From IMG/VR virus record IMGVR_UViG_3300037755_000886, positions 1 to 64,000 of that record: a stretch of 64,000 nt of DNA. One strand, 5' to 3'. The translations under genes were made by a program, and so were the position numbers. A model generated the notes under the pieces. It made no database searches and had not been told where the DNA came from. It saw only the letters and a list, made by a program, of their open reading frames with translations. The stretch is from a virus (lineage: Duplodnaviria > Caudoviricetes). Shown here piece by piece: positions 33,103 through 59,037 of this stretch; position 1 is the stretch's first letter, and each line of letters begins with the position of its first letter.

Positions 33103-33921
33103 ATGACTCCAGTCCTCGCGGAACACCGCCCGAACTCACCGCATCGACGAGGTGCGATCTACCAGCAGATTGCCGATGACCTGCTCGAACGCATCACAGG
33201 CGGCGAGTTCCCGCCAGGGTCCCGCCTGCCAACCGAGCACCAGCTGATGGACCACTACCGGGCGTCGAGTACGACCGTCCGGGGCGCCGTGAAGGCGATC
33301 GCCGCTGCGGGAGTCGTCGAGACCCGCCACGGCGCCGGCAGTTTCGTGGTCGACCGGCTGCTCCTGTCGATCTACGCCACACACACCGAGGACCTCGACC
33401 GACGCGAGGGCATCACCGCACAGGACTCGTGGTCAACGGACGTACTCGACGCTGGCCGTGCACCACACCAGCGGTTCGAGTGCCTGAACGTCCCGGCCAC
33501 CGCCAGCGCGGCCGCGGTCCTCGGCGTCGAGGTCGACGATGCGCTCGTGAAGCGCCGGTGCTGGCGATCGGTCGACGGCGCGCCCGCGTCCATCGAGACC
33601 AGCCTGTTCCCCCGGTGGCTGGTCGAGGCCCTGCCCGAACTCGCCTCCCCCCACGACATCCGCCAGGGCACGACGTCCTACGTGGCCAAGCACGGGCACC
33701 CGATGACCCTCCACCAGGATCACCTCTCCGCCCGCCCCTTCACCCGGGAGGAAGCCCTGTTCTTCGAGGCGCCGCCGGGCGTTGTCGGTCTCATCCGAGA
33801 CCGGGTCTCCTTCGATGAGCCCGGTGGCCGCGTCCTGCGCTACATGGAGACGGTCTACCGATCGGACATGCACGAGGTCGTCTACGACGTGGCCGGCCGA
33901 GGGAATCGCCAGCTCCCATGA
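33103..33921 (+). CDS. GntR/HutC-family regulator with UTRA domain (KorSA-like)
   Basis: YQQIADDL..GSRLPTE..L..Y..S..TVR.A..G.GSFV; UTRA C-terminus. Confidence 0.92.
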   Translation: MTPVLAEHRPNSPHRRGAIYQQIADDLLERITGGEFPPGSRLPTEHQLMDHYRASSTTVRGAVKAIAAAGVVETRHGAGSFVVDRLLLSIYATHTEDLDRREGITAQDSWSTDVLDAGRAPHQRFECLNVPATASAAAVLGVEVDDALVKRRCWRSVDGAPASIETSLFPRWLVEALPELASPHDIRQGTTSYVAKHGHPMTLHQDHLSARPFTREEALFFEAPPGVVGLIRDRVSFDEPGGRVLRYMETVYRSDMHEVVYDVAGRGNRQLP

Positions 33922-34469
33922 CGGCGCCCACGCTGTATCTCCGGCGGGCCGTGTGCAGCGACATTGACACGATCTACGAGTGGCGCCACGAAACGTCCGC
34001 CTGGTTGGCCCGCACCCACGACACCGACCAGTGGTCGACGCCGTACCCGCGGGCCAACCTGGAGCGCTGGGTCGATCGAGGCGAGACCTTCATGGCCGCT
34101 CTCGAATCGGCCGGCCGGCCGATCGCCACCATCACGTCGTCGTCGGAGGGGGACCCAGATCTGTGGACGCCCGGCGAGTTGGCCACGCCGGCGCGCTACG
34201 TCTCGAAGGCGAACGTCGTGCGCCAGCAGGCAGGCCGGGGCATCGGCACCACGCTCATCGCGTGGACACGCAGCAAGGCCGCGGAGGCCGGCGCCGAGCA
34301 CGTGCGCATCGACGTGTGGTCGACGAACGAGAAGCTCCACGACTTCTACCGCCGACTCGGGTTCCGGCACCTGCGGACCGTCCCCGGCACGAACTCGGGC
34401 GCCTTGTTCGAGGCTCCGGCGGCCAGGGTTCCGGGGCTGCCGATCGTCGAGCGGACTGGCGGCCGATGA
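33918..34469 (+). CDS. GNAT acetyltransferase
   Basis: QQAGRGIGTTLI; RIDVWSTNEKLHDFYRRLGF. Confidence 0.9.
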   Translation: MTAPTLYLRRAVCSDIDTIYEWRHETSAWLARTHDTDQWSTPYPRANLERWVDRGETFMAALESAGRPIATITSSSEGDPDLWTPGELATPARYVSKANVVRQQAGRGIGTTLIAWTRSKAAEAGAEHVRIDVWSTNEKLHDFYRRLGFRHLRTVPGTNSGALFEAPAARVPGLPIVERTGGR

Positions 34470-34702
34470 GGTTCGTCGCGACGACCGTTGTCCGAACGCT
34501 GATCGTCGTAGCCACCCTCGGGCTGCTGTTCGCCGGCTACCTCGTCCTCTATCGCCTTCCCCGCGAACGCGCCGCCGACGAGTGGACCCGCTGCGCGAAA
34601 CCGCACATCGTCGCCGCCGAGCGCGCCCAGCGGAACTACGACTTTCATGCCACCGAGGCGGCACTGAAGGCGGCCCAAGCTTGCGGACCACCGCCGTCGT
34701 GA
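34466..34702 (+). CDS. Small single-TM protein
   Basis: Coupled; hydrophobic N-terminus. Confidence 0.55.
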   Translation: MRFVATTVVRTLIVVATLGLLFAGYLVLYRLPRERAADEWTRCAKPHIVAAERAQRNYDFHATEAALKAAQACGPPPS

Positions 34703-35130
34703 CCCCCTGGCACCGCGGCAACGCCGAGGCGGACGCGCACGAAAACCGGTCGTGGCTCGTCGGCCATTTCAAAGCCAGCGACGACATCCGCTACGACGAG
34801 GACGTCGAGGTGAAGGTCAGCTCGCACCCCGCGGGGGACGAGCGGGCCGAGTGGTCGACCGGCGAGTGGAGGCGCACGTTCTTCATGGTGATGACCGGCA
34901 AGTGGCGCCTCGACCTCAAGCTCGAGGACGGCGACAACACCGAGACGGTCATCGCCGGGCCCGGGGACTACGTCGTCTGGGGGCCGGGCGTCGCGCACAC
35001 CTACCGGGCTGAGGCGGACTCGACGGTGATCACCGTGCGGTGGCCGTCGGTGCGGCCGACGCCGCGGCGGCCACCCTCGCGCGCAAATCTCCGGTCCAGC
35101 GGGTCCCTTCTGCCGCCTGACCTGCGGTGA
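34699..35130 (+). CDS. Cupin-fold protein
   Basis: WLVGHF..VEVK..HPAGDER..GDYVVWGPGVAH..TVRWPS. Confidence 0.8.
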   Translation: MTPWHRGNAEADAHENRSWLVGHFKASDDIRYDEDVEVKVSSHPAGDERAEWSTGEWRRTFFMVMTGKWRLDLKLEDGDNTETVIAGPGDYVVWGPGVAHTYRAEADSTVITVRWPSVRPTPRRPPSRANLRSSGSLLPPDLR

Positions 35131-35159
35131 CTGTCCCGCGCTGCGATGGCTGCTGCCGG

Positions 35160-35636
35160 TTAGGTGATGGTCGGGTCGTACCCGAGCGTCAGGTAGTAGC
35201 GGACCATCCCGCCGATCGGAGGGTCAGGTTCGGCGTTGAGCGCCCGGCTGACCGAGTGCGCCCGGGCGTTCTTCACGCCGCACATCCAGTACGCGTAGCC
35301 ACCCGGCGACCGGGAGGCCAGTTCGTTGAGAACAGCGTCGAGTAGATCGCGGCCGAGGTGACCGCCTTGGCGATCGACGCGGACGCCGAGCACGATCACG
35401 TACCAGACCTCGCAGTTGAGGTCCTCGTCGTCGTCGTCCTGCTCGAAGGCGCAGGCGGCTACAATCTCGCCGTCATCGTCGACGACCCATGCGTCAGCGC
35501 CGGCATCACGAGCCCGAAGGAACAGCTCCGTCCGGATGAAGCGCTCGGCTTCGTGCGCGTAGGAGCCTGTCGTGGTGGCGCACTTGAACGCTCCGAGGGC
35601 TGGTAGGTCGGCTCCTTCGAGGGGCCGGATCTTCAC
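35160..35636 (-). CDS. GNAT acetyltransferase, candidate TA toxin
   Basis: VLGVRVDRQGGHLGRDLLD acetyl-CoA loop; GTGA-coupled to a small basic gene. Confidence 0.7.
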   Translation of the reverse strand: MKIRPLEGADLPALGAFKCATTTGSYAHEAERFIRTELFLRARDAGADAWVVDDDGEIVAACAFEQDDDDEDLNCEVWYVIVLGVRVDRQGGHLGRDLLDAVLNELASRSPGGYAYWMCGVKNARAHSVSRALNAEPDPPIGGMVRYYLTLGYDPTIT

Positions 35637-38866: not shown

Positions 38867-39107
38867 CATCCCACGTTCCATCCCACGTTCTCCGCGCGGA
38901 GGCGCGCGAACACGCGCGTTGCGCCTCGCCCTCGCGCGCTACCGTCTGCGTACGCGCGCTGGTGCGCGGTTGTGCTCTTGACTCTTAATCCGCAGGTTCT
39001 GGGTTCGAATCCCAGGGGGCGTACCACCAGAAAGCGCAGGTCAAGGGCACTTTCTGAAGGTGGGAACGAACGAGGGACTAGGATCCATCCCACGTTCATC
39101 CCACATC
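38867..39107. repeat. Integrase arm-type sites of attP
   Basis: CATCCCACGTTC at 38867, 38879, 39086 and CATCCCACATC at 39097, flanking the core. Confidence 0.8.
38980..39026 (+). mobile_element. attP core = 3' half of tRNA-Lys(CTT)
   Basis: GACTCTTAATCCGCAGGTTCTGGGTTCGAATCCCAGGGGGCGTACCA: anticodon loop, T-arm, CCA; no D-arm or 5' anticodon stem. Confidence 0.88.
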
Positions 39108-39122: not shown

Positions 39123-40394
39123 ATGGCGGCGAGCAAGAAGAAGGGCCCGCGCGAGAAGGGCTCTGGCTCGAAACGCGAGACACGCAAGAACGTCTGGGAG
39201 CTGCGGGTCAACCTGGCGCCCGACCCCGTTACCGGCAAACGACGCCAGCTCTCCGACACGTTCCGGGGCGGCGAGAAGGCCGCCAACGTCGCCCTGGCCA
39301 CGCTCATCTCCAAGACCCAGGCCGACCGGGCGCCGGCCACCGAGGCCACGTTCGGCTACCTGCTCACGACGTGGCTCGAGCGCTGCGAACGGAACCTCGC
39401 GGAGTCCACGGTCGTCGGATACCGGCGCATCGTCGATGACCTGTGGATGCCGAAGCTCGGCCACGTCCCCCTCGCCAGGCTCGAGTCCCGCCACCTGCAG
39501 GCCGTCCTCGACTGGGACCACCAGCGCAAGGTCACCCGCGGCAAGAAGGTCACGCCGATCAAGGCCGACACCGTGCTGCGCCACTGGGCCGCCGCCCGCA
39601 AGGCGTTGAACGACGCCGTGCAGATGGGGTGGATCCCGAGCTCGCCCGGCGACCGGGTGCTGCTGCCGTCGAAACGCAAGGGCCGCGACCGGGACCTGTC
39701 CAAGGACGAGCTCCTCAAGATCCTGCTGTGCGCCGACGAGATGGACCCCGCGCTCGGGCTGATCCTGCGCGCCGCGAGCCTGTCGGGCGCCCGCCGCTCG
39801 GAGATGGCCGGCCTGCGCTGGCCCGACGTCGACTGGGAACGCAACCGGCTGAGCTTCGAGCAGGGCGTGGTCGTGCTGGCCAACCCGAAACGCAAGCCGG
39901 GCGACCCGAAGCGGCGGCCCCGCAAAGTGGTCATCAGCGACACGAAATCCCACCAGTCGCGCCCGGTCACGCTCGACCCCGACTCGATGGAACTGCTGCG
40001 TCTCCTGCGCCTGTACGTCGAGGCCGTCGCCGAGCAGGTCGGCACGGAGCTCCTCCGCGATGCGTTCGTGTTCTCCCGCGAGCCTGACGGCTCCAAGCCG
40101 CTGCGTCCCGACTGGCTGTCGACGGCGTTCAAGAAGGCGGCGAAGAAGGCGGGGTTCCCCGAGGCGCACCTGCATCAGCTGCGACACCTGTCGGCGTCGG
40201 TGATGCTGTCGCACGGGATCCCGACGGCGGTCGCCTCGAAGCGGCTCGGTCACGCCGAGGAGACGACGACCATCCAGTTCTACTCCCGGGCGATCCAGTC
40301 GGACGAGGCCGCCGCCGAGGTGTTGGCCTCGGTGCTGTTCCCGCCGGCGAAGGCGCCGACCGTGCTCGAGGTGCCGGAAGCCGAAGCCAGCTGA
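39123..40394 (+). CDS. int: Tyrosine integrase
   Basis: GARRSE (R), HQLRH, LGH, FYS (Y); N-terminal arm-binding strand. Confidence 0.95.
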   Translation: MAASKKKGPREKGSGSKRETRKNVWELRVNLAPDPVTGKRRQLSDTFRGGEKAANVALATLISKTQADRAPATEATFGYLLTTWLERCERNLAESTVVGYRRIVDDLWMPKLGHVPLARLESRHLQAVLDWDHQRKVTRGKKVTPIKADTVLRHWAAARKALNDAVQMGWIPSSPGDRVLLPSKRKGRDRDLSKDELLKILLCADEMDPALGLILRAASLSGARRSEMAGLRWPDVDWERNRLSFEQGVVVLANPKRKPGDPKRRPRKVVISDTKSHQSRPVTLDPDSMELLRLLRLYVEAVAEQVGTELLRDAFVFSREPDGSKPLRPDWLSTAFKKAAKKAGFPEAHLHQLRHLSASVMLSHGIPTAVASKRLGHAEETTTIQFYSRAIQSDEAAAEVLASVLFPPAKAPTVLEVPEAEAS

Positions 40395-48647: not shown

Positions 48648-48938
48648 ATGACCCCCAAGATCTATGAGGGCCCCAGCGCCTATGGACCGTCCAACGACAG
48701 CGCCCGCTCCGAGGCCGCTGAACGCGGCCTGACCCCGATCGGTGTCAACGGCATCGCCGCCTGGTTCGGCGTGGAACCCAACACCGTGAGCCGGTCATGG
48801 ATCGCCGAGCGCGACGCCAAGAAGGATCCGGCGAAGAAGTTCCCGGAGCCGACGTGGCCCGAGCTCAACCTCTACGCCACCCGCGTCATCGAGGAGTGGG
48901 GCATCGCCACGGGTCGCCTGGCGGAAGGTGGGCGATGA
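48648..48938 (+). CDS. AlpA/MerR-like HTH regulator
   Basis: IGVNGIAAWFGVEPNTVSRSW..FPEP..LY....IEEW. Confidence 0.7.
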   Translation: MTPKIYEGPSAYGPSNDSARSEAAERGLTPIGVNGIAAWFGVEPNTVSRSWIAERDAKKDPAKKFPEPTWPELNLYATRVIEEWGIATGRLAEGGR

Positions 48939-49459
48939 GTGCGGCCACGGACGCGGATGACTACACGGCCGTGTACCGCTGTTTCGACCGCGATGGACGT
49001 CTGGTTTACGTCGGCGCCTCATGTCTCGGCCTCGTCCGCTTCCACCAGCACCAGGCCGAGAAGGGATGGTGGCCCTGCGTCGCCCGGGTCGAGGTCGAGC
49101 ACTACGCCAACCGTGCCGAGGCGCTGGCTGCGGAGCGGGCCGCCATCGAGGCCGAGGCTCCGCGCTTCAACATCCACCACGGCCTCAGGCGGAGCGTGAC
49201 GGTACGTCGGCGGCAGGAATGGGCTTCCGATCAGCGGGTCGGAATCCCGGACAGCATCGCCAAGGGACTGCATCTCCTTCGGCGTCGTCAGCACGCGATC
49301 GCCAGGGCCAGACGGGACATCGTGCTCGCCGCCTGGAGCGAGGGCGTGTCGATCGAACGGATCGCCGATCTGGCCGGCCTGCACCGTGTCGACGTCGAGC
49401 GAGTGATCTGGTTCGCCAGGCACAGCAAGGACGGGATGGCCGCACTGCCCTACAGGTAA
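48935..49459 (+). CDS. GIY-YIG-like domain + C-terminal HTH
   Basis: AVYRCFD..LVYVG..RF.QH..WW..E..AI..E.PRFN; VSIERIADLAGLHRVDV. Confidence 0.8.
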   Translation: MSAATDADDYTAVYRCFDRDGRLVYVGASCLGLVRFHQHQAEKGWWPCVARVEVEHYANRAEALAAERAAIEAEAPRFNIHHGLRRSVTVRRRQEWASDQRVGIPDSIAKGLHLLRRRQHAIARARRDIVLAAWSEGVSIERIADLAGLHRVDVERVIWFARHSKDGMAALPYR

Positions 49460-49478: not shown

Positions 49479-49507
49479 TTGACACCCCAGACCATCTGGG
49501 GTACATT
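49479..49507 (+). promoter_or_regulatory. Rightward promoter whose spacer is a perfect operator
   Basis: TTGACA-CCCCAGA CCA TCTGGGG-TACATT; ATG 6 nt downstream (leaderless). Confidence 0.8.
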
Positions 49508-49892: not shown

Positions 49893-49940
49893 ATGACCGC
49901 TAGTTCACATGATCACAAGCTGACCGCTGGAGACCCCACC

Positions 49941-50573: not shown

Positions 50574-50834
50574 GTGAACCCCTTCGCCCACGAGATCGGC
50601 ATCGGCCAGTACATCACCGTCGACGGCGTCGGGCCCGCGCTGGTCACCCGCAAGACGGTGTACGCCACCGCTGCCGTCGTCGACCTGTACGTCGCTGTCA
50701 GCGCGACCGGCGAGATCCCGGCGGGCATCGCCCTCGGTGAGCACCTCGCCGTCGCCATCGACGTCACCGGCGCCACAGTCGAACCCACGGCCTTCCCCGG
50801 CTGGGGGCCCGGCTGGCGCATCACCACCCTGTAG
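50574..50834 (+). CDS. Hypothetical protein
   Basis: GGAGACC RBS. Confidence 0.55.
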   Translation: MNPFAHEIGIGQYITVDGVGPALVTRKTVYATAAVVDLYVAVSATGEIPAGIALGEHLAVAIDVTGATVEPTAFPGWGPGWRITTL

Positions 50835-50852
50835 CGGCCGCCGCCGGAGCGA

Positions 50853-50993
50853 GGTCGGTCAGATGGCGGCACCAGGACGAGCCTGGCCGCGTGGTGGCAC
50901 GGAGCACACCGTCCCGGACAGCCGGGCGGAGGTACCGGGTTCGAGTCCCGGTCCGGTCGCAAGGGCCGCTCTGGTGCCGCCATCTGACCGACC
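50853..50993 (+). ncRNA. tRNA-like structured RNA enclosed by a perfect 23-bp inverted repeat
   Basis: IR 50853-50875/50971-50993; T-arm CCGGG-TTCGAGT-CCCGG 50935-50951; CCGTC/GGCGG stem with 11-nt loop. Confidence 0.65.
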
Positions 50994-51007
50994 AGAGGAG
51001 ACCCGCC

Positions 51008-51265
51008 ATGACCGTCGAGAACCTTCACCTTCGCCTCGCAGGCGCCGACAACCCCGAAGAGCTGGTCGAGGGCGTGCGCGACGCCATGCGTCGGGGCTAC
51101 ACCGACGACGAGATCGCCTCCATCGTCGGACCCGAGATGCTGGCCGTCGTCAAGGGCTTGATCGTCGAGGGTGGCTGCAACGGCCTGTGCCTGACCGGCT
51201 CCGACGTGGGAGTGCCGTCTGCCTGCATCGCCTACGCCCATCCCTCCTGCCCCGAGCACGGCTGA
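51008..51265 (+). CDS. Hypothetical protein
   Basis: GAGGAG RBS right after the IR. Confidence 0.6.
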   Translation: MTVENLHLRLAGADNPEELVEGVRDAMRRGYTDDEIASIVGPEMLAVVKGLIVEGGCNGLCLTGSDVGVPSACIAYAHPSCPEHG

Positions 51266-51902: not shown

Positions 51903-52274
51903 TCAGGCGGTCAGGCGTGACCGCATCGGCTCGACGCTCAGCCCCTTGTGGGGCGTGTGCCGGTCGGGGCTGCAGGCAGCGAACGGGCCGAAGGTCGACT
52001 GCATGGCGGCAAGGTGCCGGTCGAGGTGGTCGAGCATCCAGGACGAGTAGGCGAGCGCGTCGCCGTGGGTCGTGACCTGCAGCCACGAGGCGTACAGGAC
52101 CCGCATCCGGGTGACGACCTCGGGGTGGCGGTCCCACTGCTGGCACCACCGGAGCGTGTTGCTGGCCCGGCGCTCGAGCACGTCGACGAACCAGAGCTGC
52201 ACCCAGGCGGCCAGCTCGTCCATGGTCGGCTCGGCGGTAGCGGGCGCGGATGGGTGGAGGTTGGTGACGGTCAC
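51903..52274 (-). CDS. DUF4913-domain protein (conjugative-element associated)
   Basis: WCQQWDRHPEVVTRMRVLYASW..SSW..DHLDRH..FGPFAAC..H. Confidence 0.85.
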   Translation of the reverse strand: MTVTNLHPSAPATAEPTMDELAAWVQLWFVDVLERRASNTLRWCQQWDRHPEVVTRMRVLYASWLQVTTHGDALAYSSWMLDHLDRHLAAMQSTFGPFAACSPDRHTPHKGLSVEPMRSRLTA

Positions 52275-53686
52275 GGCTTCCTCCTGAGCGTCTTGCCGAC
52301 CACCTGGGCCGGAGCGGGCGCAGGCTTCGACGTCCGGGGCTGCGGGGCCTGGTTGGCGGCGGCGGCCAGGCCGGGCGTGGCCGCGATCGCGGCCTGCATC
52401 GCTCCCCGGTGGGGCTGATGTGCGTACGACAGGCACGTGACCAACAGATTCGTGGTGCCCCGCGGTGCGCCGGTGGTGGAGTGGAGCGCAGCGGACGCGC
52501 TGGTCCGGGCATCGATGCCCCAACCGTCGGCGATCGCCTTCATCGAGTGGCCCTGCGAGACCAGCAAGGCCTGCGCCTTGGCCAGCGACTCGCCGGTGAC
52601 ACCCGCCGCCGCCAGACGCTCGGGCGACGCGACACCCTCACCCAACCTGGTCATCAGTTCCGCCTCGGCAGCCCCACCGAGCGGCTCGGGATCGGGGACC
52701 GCCTGGGGCTCATCGAAGACCGGCGCGGCCGCCATCATGGCGTCCGTCGGGGCGGCGCCGGCCGCCCGATGGCTGTCGTAGTGGGCCATTGCCGCCGGGT
52801 GCGTCGCCCGCAGGTTTTCCTCGGTGCGCGCCATCGCCTCGGCCGCGTACGCATCGGTTTCAGTGTGCGGCAGCGCGGACGCCCACACCCGCACGTTCGC
52901 TACCGGGTCCGATTGGCCCAGAGGATCCGTGGTCGACTGCGAGGACGCCGGGCGGCCCGCGGCCGCGCCCAAACCCGGCACGGCCCGACCGGCGGTGGCC
53001 TGCGGCTCGGGCGTCGACGGGGCCAACGTGACGTCCAACTCGGCGGCACAGGACGGCGTCGACGTCGCGGTCAGCTCCGGGTCCCGGCCGAGGATCGCCG
53101 TCAACTCCCCGACCGTGATCACGTCGGCGTCCTTGATGGCCATGTGGGTCCCGTAGTCGAGGACCCCGCACGCCTCGACGACGGAGACCCGGTAGATCTC
53201 CCAGTCGCCGGGCTCGGTGCCCTTGACGTACCCGGCCTCGCCGGGGAGGGGCAGGCGCTCGGCGACGAACGAGTGGCCCCGAGCGTTGCGCCAGGTGGCG
53301 GAGGTCTCGGTGAGGCTGAGGCTGTCGGGGGCGGGGCGGAGGTGGCTCGGTGCCGCCGTGTTGGTGTCAGTCCGCGTGCGCGGTGTCGTGGCATCGGGCG
53401 CAAGCTCGACCGCGGACGGCATGGCTGCCGCAGCCTCGACGATCCCGTCCCGCCACCTGCCCATCGCCTCAAAGTCCAGGCGGTCACCCACCCTGACATC
53501 GACGATCCGCCGCTGGAGCTTCGCGATCGTGTTCTGCCGGTAGTCGGTGGACACGTCGATCTGACTGGCGAGCTGACCGAGCTCGGCCTTGCGGAGCCCC
53601 AACCCGGCCACGTACGCAGCGGCCTCCTCGCGGGACTGCATCGCGTCGAGACGCCCACGCACCTCGACCGGATCGAAAGCGCTCAC
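52271..53686 (-). CDS. Ala/Pro-rich protein of ICE/plasmid type
   Basis: YD.HRA.GA.P..AM..AAPVF; low-complexity linkers. Confidence 0.55.
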   Translation of the reverse strand: MSAFDPVEVRGRLDAMQSREEAAAYVAGLGLRKAELGQLASQIDVSTDYRQNTIAKLQRRIVDVRVGDRLDFEAMGRWRDGIVEAAAAMPSAVELAPDATTPRTRTDTNTAAPSHLRPAPDSLSLTETSATWRNARGHSFVAERLPLPGEAGYVKGTEPGDWEIYRVSVVEACGVLDYGTHMAIKDADVITVGELTAILGRDPELTATSTPSCAAELDVTLAPSTPEPQATAGRAVPGLGAAAGRPASSQSTTDPLGQSDPVANVRVWASALPHTETDAYAAEAMARTEENLRATHPAAMAHYDSHRAAGAAPTDAMMAAAPVFDEPQAVPDPEPLGGAAEAELMTRLGEGVASPERLAAAGVTGESLAKAQALLVSQGHSMKAIADGWGIDARTSASAALHSTTGAPRGTTNLLVTCLSYAHQPHRGAMQAAIAATPGLAAAANQAPQPRTSKPAPAPAQVVGKTLRRKP

Positions 53687-53991
53687 GACGAACCGCCGAT
53701 CCCGACGTCGGCCAACCAGGCCAACACCATCGGGCGAATCGCCGGGTCGGCGAGCGTGTCACGCACCACGCGGCCCTCACAGCGCGGGTCCGCCGAGGAC
53801 TGCCACTCGTCGAGCGCCTCCTCGATGAGCACGTCGAGCGGGTGCGGGGCCGGCAGCTCCGGCTTGGCGTCGACCACCACGACGTCGACGTCACCGGCGG
53901 CGATCGCGTCGACGACATCGGGGGGCAGACGACGGTAGGCCTTGCTAGAGCGGGGGTGGGAGTGGGTGAGTGGGGCGTTGATGTCGATCAT
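53683..53991 (-). CDS. Hypothetical protein
   Basis: GGAGG RBS; coupled. Confidence 0.55.
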   Translation of the reverse strand: MIDINAPLTHSHPRSSKAYRRLPPDVVDAIAAGDVDVVVVDAKPELPAPHPLDVLIEEALDEWQSSADPRCEGRVVRDTLADPAIRPMVLAWLADVGIGGSS

Positions 53992-54059
53992 GGGGGCCTC
54001 CGGGGGCGGTGACGGGGAGTGACGGTCAGGTCGGTGGGCGGGGGAAACGGTGGATGGTT

Positions 54060-54221
54060 GGGATCGGGGGGTTTCGGGGGATCGGGGGGTGGGGGTCCCA
54101 TCCGATGTGAACTATGTGAAATGTGCAGGTCAGGGCTGGTTTCTGCGATGTGAAGTGGCATGTGAGGCGCGGTGTGAACTCACATCACCTCACAGCGCGA
54201 CTTCACATCGCCGGTTCACGT
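54060..54221. repeat. clt/oriT-like short-repeat array directly downstream of the translocase gene
   Basis: Six (A/G)TGTG(A/C)(A/G) copies 54105-54178 facing four inverted copies 54179-54221; GGATCGGGGG repeats upstream. Confidence 0.6.
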
Positions 54222-56288
54222 CCGGTCGACGACGTCACGGCGACGCACCGCGCGACGGTTGCCGTGCTGACGGGACGGCTCGATCGGGACCTTGGCGTCC
54301 CGGAGCTGCTCAACGAGCGCCTCAACGTCGACACCGAGGCGGACCGTGAGGTCATCGACCGGGACCACGTTCTCGTCGCCCATCGCATCGAGCACCCGGG
54401 CCAGCAGGTCGCCGGTCTCCTTGGCCAGCTGCACCTTCGGTGGTGCCGGCGCCCGTCGGACCAGATCGACGCCGAGGGCCCCGATGCGCTCGTGGTCCTG
54501 CTGGCTGAACAGGTAGGTCTTGACCTGCTGGATGCCCTTGTGTGCCTGGAAGCCCGACGGGTTGACGAGGCAAACGCCCTGGTAGTCGTCGGGCCAGCGG
54601 CTCGTGTCGTAGCCGTCACCCACCCGGCCGGTGCCGAGGACCAGGTTCGAGTCGGCGGCGTTCATCGTGCGGAACGCCACCCGGATCCCGAGCGATGCCT
54701 GTGCGCCACCGAGGGTGTCGGAGTCGAAGCGCTGGCCGGCGATGATCGGGACGATGCCGCCGGAACGCACCATCTGTGACAGGCCCATGACCCGCTCCTG
54801 GATCAGGGACCCGTGCTTGCGGTGGGCGACCAGGAAGTTGAGCTCGTCGATGATGACCGGAACCAGGGGCAGCCCGAACTCGGGGTTGCCGGTCACGGCC
54901 GGGGTGATCTGGCCGTGCGGCATGAGTCTGGGGTCTTCGCGGCGCAGGCTCGAGATCAGCTTGGCCCGGTCCTCGCGCATCCCGTAGACGACGTCCAGCA
55001 TCTCCAGGCACCGCTTGGCGCCGTCGTCACCGCACCCCTCGCCGGACCACAGGACCGCTTTCTCGTACATCGAGAACCCGCCCTCGCCCTTGCCGTCGTG
55101 GTACAGCGGCGTGGCCCGCGGGTCCAGGACCCCGGCGGCGAGAAGAGCCAGGACCAGCGTGGACTTCCCGTAGCCGGGAGCCGAGCAGATCCATGCACCG
55201 GAGGTCCCCGGGAGGACCAGGCCGTAGAGGTCCCCGAGGACCGTGGTCCCGACCGGGACCGGGTCCCACATGCTGAAGGTCCCGAGGTCCGCGAGTGGGG
55301 ACCGCACGGGGTCCGCGGTCATGGGGTCCTCGTTGAAGATCGTGAGGAGGACCTGCCCGGCGTGTCCGGCCCTGGACAGGAGAAGGCGCTGCTCAGCGAC
55401 CCGAAACGCCGAGGCCAACTCCTCCCGCTTGGCGAGGACCTTGGAGGCCGTGGTCCCCTCGGGGAGGTCGATGAGGCCCTCCCAGCCCTCGGGTCCCCGG
55501 TCCCGGAGATACATGCCGCCAACGGTCATGGTGCCGGGGAAACTGGCGGCCGTGAAGCTGGCGACGACGCGGTCCGAGCGGACCAGGGTGCGGGCCGGGT
55601 CCTCCGATCCTGCGGTCCTCACGGGACCCGCGTCCGGGTCCGGGTCCCCGTTGGGCCGGCCGTTGTGGATGAGGACCGCGAGGACCCCGGCGGCGAGGAC
55701 CGCACGGAGGACCGGGGAGACCTCGGGGGACACGATCAGGAGGACCGCGGCGAGGACCGCGGCGAGGACCGCGCAGGTCTTCCACGTTCGCTCGTTGCGG
55801 GTCCGGTGGCGCTCCTTGCGCTCGTACTGCCGGGCCCGCCCGTTCTTGTTCTCGGCGGCGTGGCGCTCCATCGCCAGGGTCTCGGCGTCGATCGCGTAGC
55901 GGACCAGGTGAAGGGAGAGCCGCCACCCGCCCCGAACCGCCCACCCGACTGGGCGGACCGCGTACCCGCGCTTGATCCCGTGGTAGGCGGCCTGGTTGAC
56001 CCCGTACCGCCCGGCGTGCGTCACGTTGCGCCGGACCCCGCTCGCGGTCTTCGCCCACGGCGGCAGGATGGGGAGCATCGCCGGGGCGACCCGGCCCGAG
56101 TCCTCGGCGTTGACATCCGGCTCGGCGACCACCGACACAGGCGGAGGGGGCAGGGTGTCGAGCTCGACCGTGTCCTCCGGATACGGGTCCCGCGGGTACG
56201 CCTGCCCCAGATAGATCTCCTGGTCGTCACCGCGTTTGAGGAGGTTCAGGGCGCGGCGGCCGTTCTGGTGGTCCGTGGTCGCGGTCAC
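54216..56288 (-). CDS. FtsK/SpoIIIE-family conjugal DNA translocase (TraB-like)
   Basis: TM segments, Walker A APGYGKST, Walker B IIDE, RSGGI..AGQR, C-terminal wHTH-like domain. Confidence 0.88.
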   Translation of the reverse strand: MTATTDHQNGRRALNLLKRGDDQEIYLGQAYPRDPYPEDTVELDTLPPPPVSVVAEPDVNAEDSGRVAPAMLPILPPWAKTASGVRRNVTHAGRYGVNQAAYHGIKRGYAVRPVGWAVRGGWRLSLHLVRYAIDAETLAMERHAAENKNGRARQYERKERHRTRNERTWKTCAVLAAVLAAVLLIVSPEVSPVLRAVLAAGVLAVLIHNGRPNGDPDPDAGPVRTAGSEDPARTLVRSDRVVASFTAASFPGTMTVGGMYLRDRGPEGWEGLIDLPEGTTASKVLAKREELASAFRVAEQRLLLSRAGHAGQVLLTIFNEDPMTADPVRSPLADLGTFSMWDPVPVGTTVLGDLYGLVLPGTSGAWICSAPGYGKSTLVLALLAAGVLDPRATPLYHDGKGEGGFSMYEKAVLWSGEGCGDDGAKRCLEMLDVVYGMREDRAKLISSLRREDPRLMPHGQITPAVTGNPEFGLPLVPVIIDELNFLVAHRKHGSLIQERVMGLSQMVRSGGIVPIIAGQRFDSDTLGGAQASLGIRVAFRTMNAADSNLVLGTGRVGDGYDTSRWPDDYQGVCLVNPSGFQAHKGIQQVKTYLFSQQDHERIGALGVDLVRRAPAPPKVQLAKETGDLLARVLDAMGDENVVPVDDLTVRLGVDVEALVEQLRDAKVPIEPSRQHGNRRAVRRRDVVDRT

Positions 56289-56431
56289 GGCGCGCTCACC
56301 GCGGTGATGCAGCAGCTGGCGCCGGGCCGGACGATCGGCGCCGGCGGGTTGGTGATCAGCAACACGAGGCCGATGGCCCACGTGATCAGCCACACGGTGG
56401 CCAGCAGGAGCGGGGGCGGACGGTTACGCAT
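56285..56431 (-). CDS. Small single-TM protein
   Basis: MRNRPPPLLLATVWLITWAIGLVLLI; GGAGGAG RBS. Confidence 0.5.
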   Translation of the reverse strand: MRNRPPPLLLATVWLITWAIGLVLLITNPPAPIVRPGASCCITAVSAP

Positions 56432-57377
56432 CGGGGGTCTCCTCCATGCGGGCACGGGCGAGGGGCAGGATCTGGAGGCGGACCCGGTCGTTGTTGACCC
56501 GGTGCCCCTTCTTGCGCAGGGCCTCGGCCAAGGGCTTCCAGCTGGACAGCACGCCTGGATCGGCGGCGGCCAGTCGGCAGGCGACTGCGGCAAGCTCGTC
56601 GTCGGTCAGCGCCGCCTTGGTGGCCGGCCGGCGCGCCGGGGGCCGTTTGGCCGGGGCCGGCCGGGTGACCCGCGGGCGTTCAGGAGCCTCCGTCACCTCG
56701 ACCGGTGCCGGGCCGGTGGGCTCCTCCTCCTGCTCGTCGACGTCGATCCCGGCGGCCGCGGCGATGATCCGGTACAGCTCCCGCTTGCGCGCCGGCGCGG
56801 CAGCGAGCGATCCGTGCCGGTCGGTCAACCGGGCCAGGAACCGGCGGCGCTCCAAGTCGAGGGCCTCGGCGTACGAGGTGATGCCCCACACCCGCATGCG
56901 GCGCCACAGGCGGAGCGTCGGCCACGGCGCGCACACCCAGCGGGCCAGCGGGATCCGGTCGGCGACCTCAACGAGGCGGGCCGTCATCGTGGCCTTGGCG
57001 GCCTCAACAGCGGCGGCGAACAGGGCGGGCAGGGCGGCGTGGCCGAGGATCCCGAACAGCCCGGTCTTGCCGGCGACGTTCAACGCGATCGTGACGCCGA
57101 TGAGCGCCCACGCGAACCAGCGGAGCCAGGCGACCTTGCGCTCCCCGCGGGTGAGAGCGAAGTCGAGGCCGGTGAAGAAGGCGATGGCGCCGTCAACGCT
57201 CGCGGGCAGCAGCCACGGCCGGTCCCATCCGTCGGCCGCGGCGACGGCGGCGACGTTCGTGAACGAGCCGATGGCGCCGAACGCTCCGAGGGCGGCGACA
57301 CCCGTCAGCATGACGGGGAGCAGCAGGTCCCGGGAGACGCCCGAGGGGCGGACGCGGTCGAGAAGCGCGGCGGTCAT
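56424..57377 (-). CDS. DUF2637 membrane protein (spread/transfer associated)
   Basis: GSF..V..A..W..PWLLPASVDG..LNV..HA.LP; RW...PW.T.RLWRRM..W.I.SY. Confidence 0.88.
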   Translation of the reverse strand: MTAALLDRVRPSGVSRDLLLPVMLTGVAALGAFGAIGSFTNVAAVAAADGWDRPWLLPASVDGAIAFFTGLDFALTRGERKVAWLRWFAWALIGVTIALNVAGKTGLFGILGHAALPALFAAAVEAAKATMTARLVEVADRIPLARWVCAPWPTLRLWRRMRVWGITSYAEALDLERRRFLARLTDRHGSLAAAPARKRELYRIIAAAAGIDVDEQEEEPTGPAPVEVTEAPERPRVTRPAPAKRPPARRPATKAALTDDELAAVACRLAAADPGVLSSWKPLAEALRKKGHRVNNDRVRLQILPLARARMEETPDA

Positions 57378-57961
57378 CGGAACACCCCGGCGCGTCGCTG
57401 CCCGTTGGTGCGCTGCTGATGGCACGACCGACCGCCACCCCCGCAGAGGGTGCGCAGGTTGGCGAGGTGATGGATGCAACCCGGCTCCCGATGGCGGCCG
57501 AGTGCAGCGTCGATGTGGTCGACCTCGAGATGCTCGGCGCTCCCGCACTGGGTGCACCGGTAGCCGTCCATGCGGCGACGGGCTGAGCGGGCCCGGTCGA
57601 ACACATGGTTCTCGTTGGCCTCGTCAGCGCACCGTGGGCCGCAGAAGTTGTAGCGGTTCCGGGGGATCAGCCCGTTGCACCACCGGCACGCCCACGGCCC
57701 ACCCTGCCAAGCGGACAGGACGCACGCCCGGTAGATGTCGTCGCCCTGGAGCACCGGCGGACGGGGACGGGACTGCTCCCGGTGCAACCACTTCCCGAGC
57801 ACGACGTAGGCCAGCCCGGCAAGGGCCGCGTCGATGGCGCGCCGCTCGATGTGGTGCGCCCACCGGTGCATGGCCCGGCGCAGGGATCGGCCGGCGACCC
57901 GCAGGACGAGGAACCCGAGCGCGACGAACACGACGAAGAGGAGGGTGAGGTCGGCGGTCAC
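57374..57961 (-). CDS. Membrane-anchored HNH endonuclease
   Basis: Two N-terminal TM segments; CRWC..FCGPRC; CTQCG..LEVDHI..NLRTLC..CH. Confidence 0.85.
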   Translation of the reverse strand: MTADLTLLFVVFVALGFLVLRVAGRSLRRAMHRWAHHIERRAIDAALAGLAYVVLGKWLHREQSRPRPPVLQGDDIYRACVLSAWQGGPWACRWCNGLIPRNRYNFCGPRCADEANENHVFDRARSARRRMDGYRCTQCGSAEHLEVDHIDAALGRHREPGCIHHLANLRTLCGGGGRSCHQQRTNGQRRAGVFR

Positions 57962-59037
57962 GGCCGGTCCCCGTTGCCGTTGCTGCCGTTGCCCGCGTGG
58001 GCGGGCGCCGGGGGTGGCACGTAGCCGGCCCAGTCGTTGCGGGCGTGCTGGTCGAGGGCGAGTCCGGCCAGGAACTCGCGGGTGTCCGCATGGACCTCAC
58101 CGGCTCGGGTGCGCCACGCCTCGGCTTCCGGGCTCGGGCTAGCGTTCGGCGCGGGCGGGCCCGGCTCGGCGAACGGACGCGGCACGTACCCGGCGGGGAC
58201 CAGTGGCTCGGCGAGTTCGTCGTGCGGGTAGTCGGCGGGACCCGCTTTGCGCTCGGCCCGCTTCGCCTTCCGGTCGGCCTTGCGCTGCGCCCGGGTCTTC
58301 TTCGGCGGCCGGGTCTGGCGCATCAACCACCGGTCGATGCGGCCGGGGCTCGACAGCTCCTCGTCGGGCACGCCGGCCTCGCGCTCGGCAGCCCACTGCC
58401 GCCCCCACGCGTCGCGGCGCCACATGCCGAAGCGCCGTACCTGGCGGGCGTCGCGGTGCCCTGCCCGCCAGTCGGATGCGACCCCGCGTGCCGCGCCCCG
58501 GATGCCCCGGCGCTTCACACGGCGGACCGTGAGGCGGCACAGGCTCATCACGGCCAGGAACATGCAGCCGATCGACGAGACGATGGCGCCGATGTGGAAG
58601 CCGTCGGCGAGCAGCCCCGCGGTGCGGGCCGGCCGGCCGGTAGGCGTCAACGTGAGCAGCGGCTGCGGCCCGTCCTTCGACGGGATGAACCCGCCGCTGC
58701 CGTCGGATGTCGGCATGCACTTGGGCGGCCAGTCCTCACATCGAATGCCCATTGACCGCTCAACCTGCGGTGTGACCGCGATCGTGTCGGCCACCGTCGC
58801 CATGGCGGCGTACAGCGGCCAGCAGATCAGTGCCGTGAGGACCGGCGAGAAGACCAGGAACCGGAGTCCCCACCGGACACCCCGGGTCGCGACCCGCGCG
58901 CCGACGAGCGCGTGGCTGAGGTCGAGGTGCAGGGGTGCGCCCTGCACTACCGCGTGTGCCGCGCTCGCACCATTTGCGGCGGCCTGGCTGGCGGTCTGGC
59001 GCAGCACCGTCCCAGTCGACTGAGGCGACAGGCCCAT
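57958..59037 (-). CDS. Two-TM membrane protein with basic cytoplasmic tail
   Basis: Hydrophobic segments; Cys pair in the outer loop. Confidence 0.65.
   Translation of the reverse strand: MGLSPQSTGTVLRQTASQAAANGASAAHAVVQGAPLHLDLSHALVGARVATRGVRWGLRFLVFSPVLTALICWPLYAAMATVADTIAVTPQVERSMGIRCEDWPPKCMPTSDGSGGFIPSKDGPQPLLTLTPTGRPARTAGLLADGFHIGAIVSSIGCMFLAVMSLCRLTVRRVKRRGIRGAARGVASDWRAGHRDARQVRRFGMWRRDAWGRQWAAEREAGVPDEELSSPGRIDRWLMRQTRPPKKTRAQRKADRKAKRAERKAGPADYPHDELAEPLVPAGYVPRPFAEPGPPAPNASPSPEAEAWRTRAGEVHADTREFLAGLALDQHARNDWAGYVPPPAPAHAGNGSNGNGDRP

What the first reader, a model, noticed from the sequence alone, without database searches (positions are those of the whole stretch)
50853..50993. tRNA-mimic RNA locked inside a perfect 23-bp terminal helix
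Seen: a canonical T-arm, D-loop-like TGGCA..GAGCA, an anticodon-like stem with an 11-nt loop, a 3' half resembling tRNA-Asp, an imperfect acceptor and no CCA, all enclosed by a 23-bp IR whose right arm abuts the next RBS. Established: bacterial and phage Y RNAs pair a long terminal stem with a tRNA-like domain, and tRNA mimics can decoy anticodon nucleases or tRNA-modifying toxins. Inference: a novel phage ncRNA (decoy, Y-like RNA or T-box-like translational switch). The arm order is ordinary tRNA order, so YrlA membership is doubtful.
Basis: partly seen in the sequence, partly recalled or inferred. Interest (0 to 1): 0.75.

Follow-up and report, generated by a model that had tools for sequence, protein, structure and literature searches.

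The report
Clamped tRNA-Asp relic in phage operon
A 141-base non-coding insert between two small genes of an uncultured high-GC temperate phage is a remodelled copy of a tRNA-Asp gene that can no longer decode, shut inside a perfect 23-bp hairpin; it is real and odd, but nothing yet shows it does more than act as a stable RNA structure in the operon.

Summary
A perfect 23-bp inverted repeat (50853-50875 / 50971-50993) encloses a tRNA-shaped core on the + strand. Simulated sequences reach only 12-16 bp. The T-arm motif occurs twice in the window against 0.16 expected.

New here: the whole core (50885-50959) is collinear with actinobacterial tRNA-Asp(GTC).
- It matches 28/35 bases in the 3' half; the next isotype matches 22/35.
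- It matches up to 49/71 bases overall.

It is not a working tRNA.
- The D loop is shortened and A14 is lost.
- The anticodon loop is replaced by an 11-nt loop with no U33 or GUC.
- Base 48 is changed, and CCA is CAA.
- Both ends are buried in the helix.
- ARAGORN at default settings and Rfam tRNA do not find it. Only mascRNA hits, at 25 bits, below threshold.

It lies in a non-coding gap, 18 nt after one stop codon and 14 nt before the next ATG, in a + strand operon. It was found only in about 98%-identical environmental relatives, where it is identical. More distant relatives lack it, so no covariation test is possible. No other copy was found in IMG/VR or in GTDB genomes.

Best reading (0.4): a tRNA-Asp-derived intercistronic RNA hairpin acting in cis on processing or stability. 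A neutral relic, a trans-acting mimic and a DNA-level cassette remain open. Transcription could not be tested.

The parts
50853..50875 (+). Left arm of the perfect 23-bp inverted repeat (5' strand of the terminal helix)
   Evidence: A relative (L009) has a 43-nt insertion that ends exactly at the outer edge of this arm.
50876..50884 (+). Leader segment that can pair imperfectly with the trailer (G76.U70, C78-G68, G79-C67, C82-G64, C83-G63, U84-A62). This extends the helix up to the acceptor stem.
   Evidence: Read from the sequence. The inverted repeat extends to 35 nt at 86%. The pairs were included in the evaluated structure of -89.2 kcal/mol.
50885..50959 (+). tRNA-Asp-derived cloverleaf-like core. 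Acceptor 50885-91 / 50952-58; U8 G9 50892-93; D arm 50894-50907; A26 50908; anticodon-arm analogue 50909-50929 (11-nt loop or ACAG tetraloop); variable loop 50930-34; T arm 50935-51; discriminator G 50959.
   Evidence: mascRNA RF01684 scored 25.1 bits, E=3e-4 per genome. Collinear with actinobacterial tRNA-Asp: 28/35 in the 3' half and up to 49/71 overall. Not found by ARAGORN at default settings or by RF00005 at E<=10.
50960..50970 (+). CAA (where CCA would be) plus the trailer that pairs imperfectly with the leader
50971..50993 (+). Right arm of the perfect 23-bp inverted repeat (3' strand of the terminal helix)
   Evidence: Identical in relative L179. Homology with the element-free relative L006 starts at 50996.
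50574..50834 (+). Upstream gene (86 aa, no family). Its stop codon lies 18 nt before the helix.
   Evidence: GC3 frame plot, translation, Pfam and PHROGs both empty. Only three relatives in 5.8 billion proteins.
50995..51265 (+). RBS GAGGAG (50995-51000) and downstream gene 51008-51265 (85 aa, Cys-rich C-terminus, phrog_37860)
49479..49507 (+). Promoter-like site TTGACA-17-TACATT at the head of the + strand gene run that contains the element
   Evidence: Consensus scan: 2 sites found against 0.1 expected. Strand assignment from the frame plot.

Best explanation
The element is a remodelled copy of a tRNA-Asp gene that once sat, as phage tRNA genes often do, between small genes of an early + strand operon. 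It has lost decoding ability: there is no anticodon loop, the D loop is shortened, and the 3' end reads CAA. Its ends are held in a perfect 23-bp helix.

It is most likely co-transcribed with its neighbours. In the mRNA it would fold into a very stable rod of the terminal helix and acceptor stem, about 36 bp, capped by T-arm and anticodon-arm hairpins.

Inferred mechanism: it acts in cis as an intercistronic structure.
- It would be a substrate for host double-strand-specific RNase III, and possibly for RNase P at the acceptor.
- It could also act as a barrier to exonucleases.
- Either way it would uncouple the stability or expression of the genes on its two sides.

Shown: the anatomy, the tRNA-Asp ancestry, the non-coding status, the loss of tRNA function, and the narrow distribution. 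Inferred: transcription, folding in vivo, cleavage, and any effect on expression.
For: - tRNA-Asp ancestry: 28/35 identical in the 3' half against 22/35 for the next isotype and a mean of 13.4. All arms are in register, with up to 49/71 identity to 16 distinct actinobacterial tRNA-Asp sequences.
- Loss of function: ARAGORN at default settings and RF00005 at E<=10 do not find it. The loop is 11 nt without U33. A14 and Y48 are lost and CCA reads CAA.
- Strand: the T loop and four G.U pairs (2:71, 7:66, 30:40, G76.U70) work only on the + strand, which is the strand of the flanking genes.
- Non-coding and fitted between genes: GC3 periodicity vanishes over 50840-50990. There are 18 nt from the stop codon to the helix and 1 nt from the helix to the RBS.
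- Stability: -100 kcal/mol, z = -7.4. The T arm and the extended anticodon hairpin have pairing probability above 0.9.
- Related phage operons carry real tRNA genes in such gaps: tRNA-Leu(TAA) in L111.
- The record has no RNase III, CCA-adding enzyme, TGT or Ro60 gene, so any processing would be by host enzymes.
Against:
- There is no sequence variation among the copies, so selection on the helices cannot be shown.
- A helix with 23 perfect Watson-Crick pairs and no G.U pair looks more like a DNA-level palindrome or a recent event than an RNA helix shaped by long selection.
- The nearest-neighbour model prefers a fold without the acceptor stem: MFE -98.7 against -89.2 kcal/mol, with acceptor pairing probability about 0.19 and D arm below 0.01.
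- Relatives at 62-85% protein identity do without the element.
Confidence: 0.4

Rival explanations
1. It is a neutral relic. A phage tRNA-Asp gene decayed, and a DNA-level event such as template switching or quasi-palindrome correction during replication made its flanks and anticodon stem into perfect palindromes. It has no function and has simply not yet been deleted in this young lineage.
For: - tRNA detectors fail on a body that is tRNA-Asp by homology.
- Tertiary-core positions A14 and Y48 and pairs 13:22 and 6:67 are damaged.
- The clamp is perfectly Watson-Crick. The inner anticodon hairpin CCCGG-ACAG-CCGGG is also a perfect palindrome.
- The element was found only in a cluster of about 98%-identical genomes.
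- More distant relatives lack it.
Against: - The genome is tightly packed, with many 4-nt gene overlaps, so 141 nt of useless DNA should be lost quickly.
- All four stems and every junction length of the cloverleaf are still intact.
- The element fits exactly between a stop codon and an RBS.
Confidence: 0.3
2. It is a trans-acting tRNA mimic. The RNA is released from the operon transcript, for example by RNase III. It then titrates a host factor that recognises the tRNA-Asp body or the tRNA elbow. Candidates are a tRNA-targeting defence nuclease or toxin, a modification enzyme, or Ro60/Rsr as a Y-RNA-like scaffold.
For: - The architecture (a long terminal helix plus D, anticodon and T arms in tRNA order) is the one described for D. 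radiodurans Yrn1. M. smegmatis YrlA is cut by RNase P and receives CCA (PMC4201824).
- The T arm is fully canonical and the acceptor is 7 bp long.
- Phage tRNAs are known to counter anticodon nucleases (PMC10264068 and PMC11555353, titles and abstracts).
Against: - No Rfam Y RNA or YrlA hit at E<=10.
- No TROVE gene in the record.
- The bacterial Ro-binding motif GNCGAAN0-1G is not matched in the helix: GUCAGAUG has two mismatches, read.
- The anticodon loop, which is the usual target of anticodon nucleases, has been destroyed rather than mimicked.
- There is no free 3' end for toxins that act on CCA.
- There is no conservation beyond near-identical genomes.
Confidence: 0.13
3. It is a DNA-level cassette or site: a MITE-like insertion with 23-bp terminal inverted repeats, an invertible segment, or a recombination or endonuclease target. 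On this reading the tRNA-like interior is passenger sequence.
For: - Both outer edges of the repeat coincide with rearrangement breakpoints in relatives. The 43-nt insertion in L009 ends at 50852/50853, and homology with L006 begins at 50996.
- The arms are perfect.
- A GIY-YIG endonuclease gene lies 1.4 kb upstream.
- The JGI contigs of one sample (L108 and L179) break at the inner edge of the right arm.
Against: - There is a single copy in the record.
- The 19-nt arm core gave only 3 unrelated single hits in 185,579 species genomes and none in IMG/VR.
- No target-site duplication is visible at the flanks.
- There is no recombinase next to it. The only integrase is 11 kb away beside its own attP-like tRNA-Lys site.
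- Contig breaks at inverted repeats are a common assembly effect.
Confidence: 0.13
4. It is a T-box-like or kissing-loop sensor of host tRNA-Asp. The loop GACAG, which contains the Asp codon GAC, would pair with C32-C36 of tRNA-Asp. UGGC in the D region would pair with the GCCA 3' end. Binding would modulate translation of the downstream gene.
For: - The 11-nt loop contains GACAG, the exact reverse complement of CUGUC of the tRNA-Asp anticodon loop.
- GGUGGCAC (50893-50900) matches the T-box core GGUGGNAC, with N complementary to G73. This was read, and the T-box consensus is recalled from memory.
Against: - No Rfam T-box hit at E<=10.
- The order of the two motifs is the reverse of a T-box, and they are only about 20 nt apart.
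- The stable fold buries G of GAC in a stem.
- The RBS is not sequestered by any strong alternative pairing.
- GUGGUG..CAC is simply the tRNA-Asp D stem, as in Asp2.
- Both matches were found post hoc, with chance of the order of 1% each.
Confidence: 0.03

Closest known systems
Phage-borne tRNA genes and tRNA pseudogenes (including attP-type partial tRNAs)
   Same: It is homologous to tRNA-Asp over the whole body. It sits in an intergenic gap of an operon of small early genes, as the real tRNA-Leu does in relative L111. The same record holds a second partial tRNA, tRNA-Lys, at its attP-like site.
   Different: It cannot decode and fails the tRNA models. It is enclosed in a perfect 23-bp helix, for which I know no precedent around a phage tRNA gene. 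Two literature searches found none.
mascRNA / menRNA (Rfam RF01684), tRNA-like RNAs cut from long transcripts by RNase P and RNase Z
   Same: It is the only Rfam family that hits: 25.1 bits, covering the acceptor, a short D arm GUGGUGGCAC and the T arm. The principle is the same: a tRNA-like fold without a working anticodon arm, embedded in a longer transcript.
   Different: The score is far below the gathering score of 42.5. mascRNA is a vertebrate nuclear RNA, so the match reflects shared tRNA shape and not kinship. mascRNA has free flanks, not a clamp.
Bacterial Y RNAs: YrlA (Salmonella, Mycobacterium, phages) and D. radiodurans Yrn1
   Same: A long helix formed by the two ends plus a tRNA-like module with a canonical T arm. 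Yrn1 has the arms in tRNA order with an anticodon-arm-like hairpin between the D and T arms (PMC4201824).
   Different: There is no Ro60 gene nearby or anywhere in the record. There is no Rfam hit. The helix lacks the GNCGAAN0-1G motif and any bulge. YrlA has the permuted arm order T-acceptor-D.
Hairpin-forming miniature repeats co-transcribed with genes (Correia/NEMIS elements of Neisseria; MIRU of mycobacteria). This comparison rests on my own knowledge.
   Same: The size is about 100-155 bp, the terminal inverted repeats are about 23-26 bp, and the location is intergenic within operons. The RNA hairpin would be a plausible RNase III substrate.
   Different: It is single-copy, with no copies in 185,579 species genomes or in IMG/VR. 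It has no target-site duplication and its interior is tRNA-derived.

Membership tests
Functional tRNA (tRNA-Asp) | Recognised by tRNA models (RF00005 gathering score 29 bits; ARAGORN at default settings) | tested here: not met
   RF00005 gave no match at E<=10 in the record except the attP tRNA-Lys piece. ARAGORN at default settings found none. With -ps it gave only a poor alternative 86-nt fold.
Functional tRNA (tRNA-Asp) | A 7-nt anticodon loop with U33 and anticodon GUC | tested here: not met
   The loop is CCGGACAGCCG, 11 nt, with no U33 and no GUC.
Functional tRNA (tRNA-Asp) | Body homologous to tRNA-Asp (acceptor, D, anticodon and T stems, variable loop, G73) | tested here: met
   28/35 identical in the 3' half against 22/35 for the next isotype. 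Collinear alignment with up to 49/71 identity.
Functional tRNA (tRNA-Asp) | Free, processable 5' and 3' ends with CCA | tested here: not met
   CAA stands in place of CCA. The leader and trailer form a 23-bp perfect helix plus further pairs.
YrlA / bacterial Y RNA | Match to the Rfam Y RNA or YrlA covariance models | tested here: not met
   cmscan of 50700-51150 at E<=10 listed only mascRNA and three unrelated weak hits.
YrlA / bacterial Y RNA | Encoded next to a Ro60/Rsr (TROVE) gene | tested here: not met
   PF05731 gave no match in the 83.8-kb record at E<=1. The host genome is unknown.
YrlA / bacterial Y RNA | Arm order T - acceptor-like hairpin - D, with the ends entering through the Ro-binding stem that carries GNCGAAN0-1G | tested here: not met
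   The arms are in ordinary tRNA order. The best helix match, GUCAGAUG, has 2 mismatches. The features are as described in PMC4201824.
T-box riboswitch | Match to Rfam T-box; specifier loop 5' of the T-box bulge; terminator or sequestrator alternative | tested here: not met
   No hit at E<=10. The motif order is reversed. No alternative pairing with the RBS competes with the 23-bp helix.
MITE-like mobile element | Multiple copies in a genome or across genomes | tested here: not met
   There is one copy in the record. The 19-nt arm gave 3 chance single hits in GTDB species genomes and 0 in IMG/VR.
MITE-like mobile element | Terminal inverted repeats with a target-site duplication | tested here: inconclusive
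   The terminal inverted repeats are perfect at 23 bp. No duplication is seen at the flanks (GCGA | ... | AGAG). The edges do coincide with breakpoints in relatives.
attP / integration-site tRNA remnant | Adjacent integrase; identity to the 3' part of a host tRNA | tested here: not met
   The only integrase is at 39123-40394, beside its own tRNA-Lys piece. The 25-nt T-arm plus acceptor stretch has no exact match in 185,579 species genomes.

The most novel reading that the evidence does not exclude
The clamp is a purpose-built RNase III release site. The freed tRNA-Asp-shaped RNA, with no anticodon, would then be a trans-acting phage ncRNA. It could be a decoy or scaffold for a host tRNA-binding factor: a defence nuclease or toxin that reads the tRNA body, or Rsr/Ro60 in the manner of Yrn1. 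That would make it a previously undescribed class of phage tRNA mimic derived from tRNA-Asp.
Probability: 0.12. Interest if true: 0.7.

Novelty: new variant of a known kind. Interest (0 to 1): 0.35.

Why it matters
If the element is only a relic, it is a clean snapshot of how a phage tRNA gene dies: a loop insertion, a D-loop deletion, and palindrome formation at DNA level. It also warns that tRNA-shaped hits in phage genomes need a homology check.

If it works in cis, it would be an example of a tRNA gene recycled into an intercistronic RNA processing or stability module in an actinobacterial phage, where RNA-level control is little studied.

If it works in trans, it would add a new kind of tRNA mimic to the phage-host conflict over tRNAs.

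The present evidence does not lift it above the first two readings.

Tried and rejected
- GenBank phages, DNA near and distant modes: no match to the element or its surroundings.
- An endolysin protein search meant to infer the host gave only distant Firmicutes phages, which is uninformative.
- Exact or gapped pattern scans:
  - The D arm to T loop pattern in IMG/VR and metagenomes returned 98 loci. All were unrelated true tRNAs or tRNA-derived repeats.
  - The altered anticodon arm plus T loop in IMG/VR: 0 hits.
  - The T arm plus acceptor 25-mer in GTDB genomes: 0 hits.
  - The arm 19-mer: chance single hits only.
- Relatives found through flanking proteins: distant ones (L004-L008, L109-L111) lack the element. 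Close ones (L009, L108, L179) carry it unchanged. Covariation analysis was therefore impossible and no covariance model was built.
- The idea that the arm GGCGGCACCA is the 3' end of a second tRNA: the best match was 13/22 among 94 tRNAs, so it was rejected.
- The ARAGORN low-threshold fold 'tRNA-Val(cac)' at 50875-50960 was rejected. It has mismatched stems and is not supported by the tRNA-Asp alignment.
- Loci L165 and L171 come from genomes flagged unpublished (G020, G084).

Full report
**Where it lies.** The window is the first 64 kb of an 83.8-kb IMG/VR virus record with about 70% G+C, rated 90% complete by CheckV. A GC3 frame plot shows that most genes run on the - strand. A short + strand block runs from about 48.6 to 51.8 kb. 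A promoter-like TTGACA-17-TACATT site at 49479-49507 lies within this block, upstream of the element.

The element fills the only sizeable gap in that block. The upstream gene is 50574-50834 (86 aa, no family), and its stop codon is 18 nt before the helix. The RBS GAGGAG (50995-51000) starts two bases after the helix, with one base (A50994) between. The downstream gene is 51008-51265 (85 aa, phrog_37860). Codon-position G+C periodicity disappears over 50840-50990, so the stretch is non-coding.

- The arms 50853-50875 and 50971-50993 are perfect reverse complements over 23 nt.
- Markov-resampled windows never exceeded 16 nt.
- The interior carries a canonical T arm. It is one of only two in the window, against 0.16 expected. 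The other belongs to the attP-like tRNA-Lys piece.
- The whole element folds at about -100 kcal/mol, z = -7.4.

**What the core is.** The tRNA detectors reject it. ARAGORN at default settings finds nothing, and Rfam tRNA gives no match at E<=10. Only the vertebrate tRNA-like family mascRNA hits, at 25.1 bits against a gathering score of 42.5.

Homology settles the matter.
- Against 57 tRNAs of one Mycobacterium genome, the 3' half matches tRNA-Asp(GTC) at 28/35. The next isotype reaches 22/35 and the mean is 13.4.
- Against 16 distinct actinobacterial tRNA-Asp sequences, the whole body aligns collinearly with up to 49/71 identity.
- Shared features are the acceptor GGCC..G/..GGUC with the G2.U71 pair, U8 and G9, the D stem, the anticodon stem CCG(C/U)C/GGCGG, the AGGU variable loop, the T loop and discriminator G73.

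The differences from tRNA-Asp are these:
- The D loop is 3-4 nt shorter and lacks A14.
- The anticodon loop CTGTCAC is replaced by CCGGACAGCCG, 4 nt longer, with no U33 and no GUC.
- C48 is changed to A.
- G49.U65 is changed to C-G.
- There is a C x C mismatch at 6:67 and a G x G mismatch at 13:22.
- CCA is changed to CAA.

The new loop refolds into a perfect CCCGG-ACAG-CCGGG hairpin with pairing probability above 0.9. The element is therefore a tRNA-Asp derivative that cannot decode. Its tertiary core is partly damaged, but all four stems and all junction lengths survive.

**Structure as RNA.** The T loop and four G.U pairs exist only on the + strand, which is the strand of the flanking genes. 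Beyond the 23 bp, the leader and trailer can add G.U plus 2 plus 3 pairs that abut the acceptor stem. That gives a rod of about 36 bp capped by the elbow.

This cloverleaf-in-clamp fold evaluates at -89.2 kcal/mol. The MFE is -98.7 kcal/mol and keeps the clamp, the T arm and the anticodon hairpin but not the acceptor or D stems. Energy models often miss true cloverleaves, so this is not decisive either way.

**Distribution.**
- The two flanking proteins are very rare: six and three hits in 5.8 billion proteins.
- Contigs from two JGI samples, about 98% identical in the flanks, carry the element unchanged. L108 plus L179 together cover all 141 nt. L009 covers the first 44 nt.
- A Logan contig has the same gene spacing, but its DNA could not be read.
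- Relatives whose downstream-gene product is 62-85% identical have no gap at all.
- No other copy or arm was found in the record, in IMG/VR or in 185,579 species genomes.
- There is therefore no variation and no covariation test.
- Both outer edges of the repeat coincide with rearrangement breakpoints. A 43-nt insertion in L009 carries the motif CTAGTTCACATGATCACAAG and ends at 50852/50853. Homology with the element-free L006 begins at 50996.
- A related operon (L111) holds a genuine tRNA-Leu(TAA) in a similar gap. This makes a tRNA-gene origin natural.

**Mechanism.** The record encodes no RNase III, CCA-adding enzyme, TGT or Ro60, so any processing would be by host enzymes. I commit, at 0.4, to a cis-acting intercistronic RNA structure derived from a dead tRNA-Asp gene. 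A 23-bp perfect duplex is a textbook RNase III substrate, and a 7+5-bp acceptor/T stack is the RNase P determinant (established knowledge; see also PMC4201824). Cleavage or exonuclease blocking would uncouple the upstream and downstream cistrons.

The rivals are as follows.
- **Neutral relic with DNA-level palindrome formation (0.3).** The absence of any G.U pair in 23 pairs and the second perfect palindrome in the anticodon arm point this way.
- **Trans-acting mimic, Y-RNA-like (0.13).** The architecture resembles Yrn1, but every membership test for YrlA or Y RNA failed.
- **DNA-level cassette (0.13).**
- **T-box-like sensor (0.03).** GACAG in the loop is the reverse complement of the tRNA-Asp anticodon loop, and GGUGGCAC resembles the T-box core. 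Both matches are post hoc and are explained by tRNA ancestry.

**Verdict.** Its functional inference is untested and, on present evidence, less likely than a cis or neutral reading. The element is a new variant of a known kind, a phage tRNA-derived element, and is of moderate interest.

Earlier first-stage notes of this scan on the same genome, covering the promoters at 48.5-49.5 kb and the TraB-like module, gave context only. The scan had also noted this same stretch from an overlapping window.

Noticed in passing
window 38952-39026 and 39123-40394: ARAGORN calls a tRNA-Lys(CTT). Rfam tRNA scores it only 14.5 bits, because just the 3' half (from the anticodon loop to CCA) is tRNA-like. A tyrosine integrase gene follows directly. 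This looks like an attP core copied from a host tRNA-Lys. Actinomycetota genomes hold tRNA-Lys 3' halves with 2 mismatches.
   Followed up: partly
window 15025-15275: There are five copies of a palindromic motif, GTTGCGCGCCATGCGCGC. Two of them form a 31-34-nt near-perfect inverted repeat around a low-G+C 61-nt core. This may be an operator array or an origin-like site. It is the strongest inverted repeat in the window.
   Followed up: partly
window 49900-49919; L009 about 1134-1153; L108 1199-1218: The 20-nt motif CTAGTTCACATGATCACAAG occurs once in the window, about 20 nt ahead of a gene start. In relatives it recurs in other contexts. In L009 it lies directly in front of the element, and in L108 it lies at a deletion junction. 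It could be a -10-type promoter (CATGAT), an operator or a recombination boundary.
   Followed up: partly
window 48935-49459 (+): A free-standing GIY-YIG endonuclease gene (phrog_3312 E=4e-18; Pfam GIY-YIG weak) lies at the head of the + strand block.
   Followed up: no
window 51903-59037 (-): There is a run of genes typical of actinomycete conjugative elements inside a tailed-phage-like record. It includes DUF4913 (51903-52274), a 725-aa protein that other notes call TraB-like (Pfam gave only a weak DprA_WH hit), and DUF2637 (56424-57377).
   Followed up: partly
window 33103-35636: There is a cluster with a host-like flavour near the integrase: a GntR/UTRA regulator, two GNAT acetyltransferases on opposite strands, and a cupin.
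   Followed up: no
L111 1389-1461: A distant relative of the downstream gene's operon carries a normal tRNA-Leu(TAA) between small genes. It is flanked by a weak 12-nt inverted repeat, GCCTAGC.../...GCTAGGC.
   Followed up: partly
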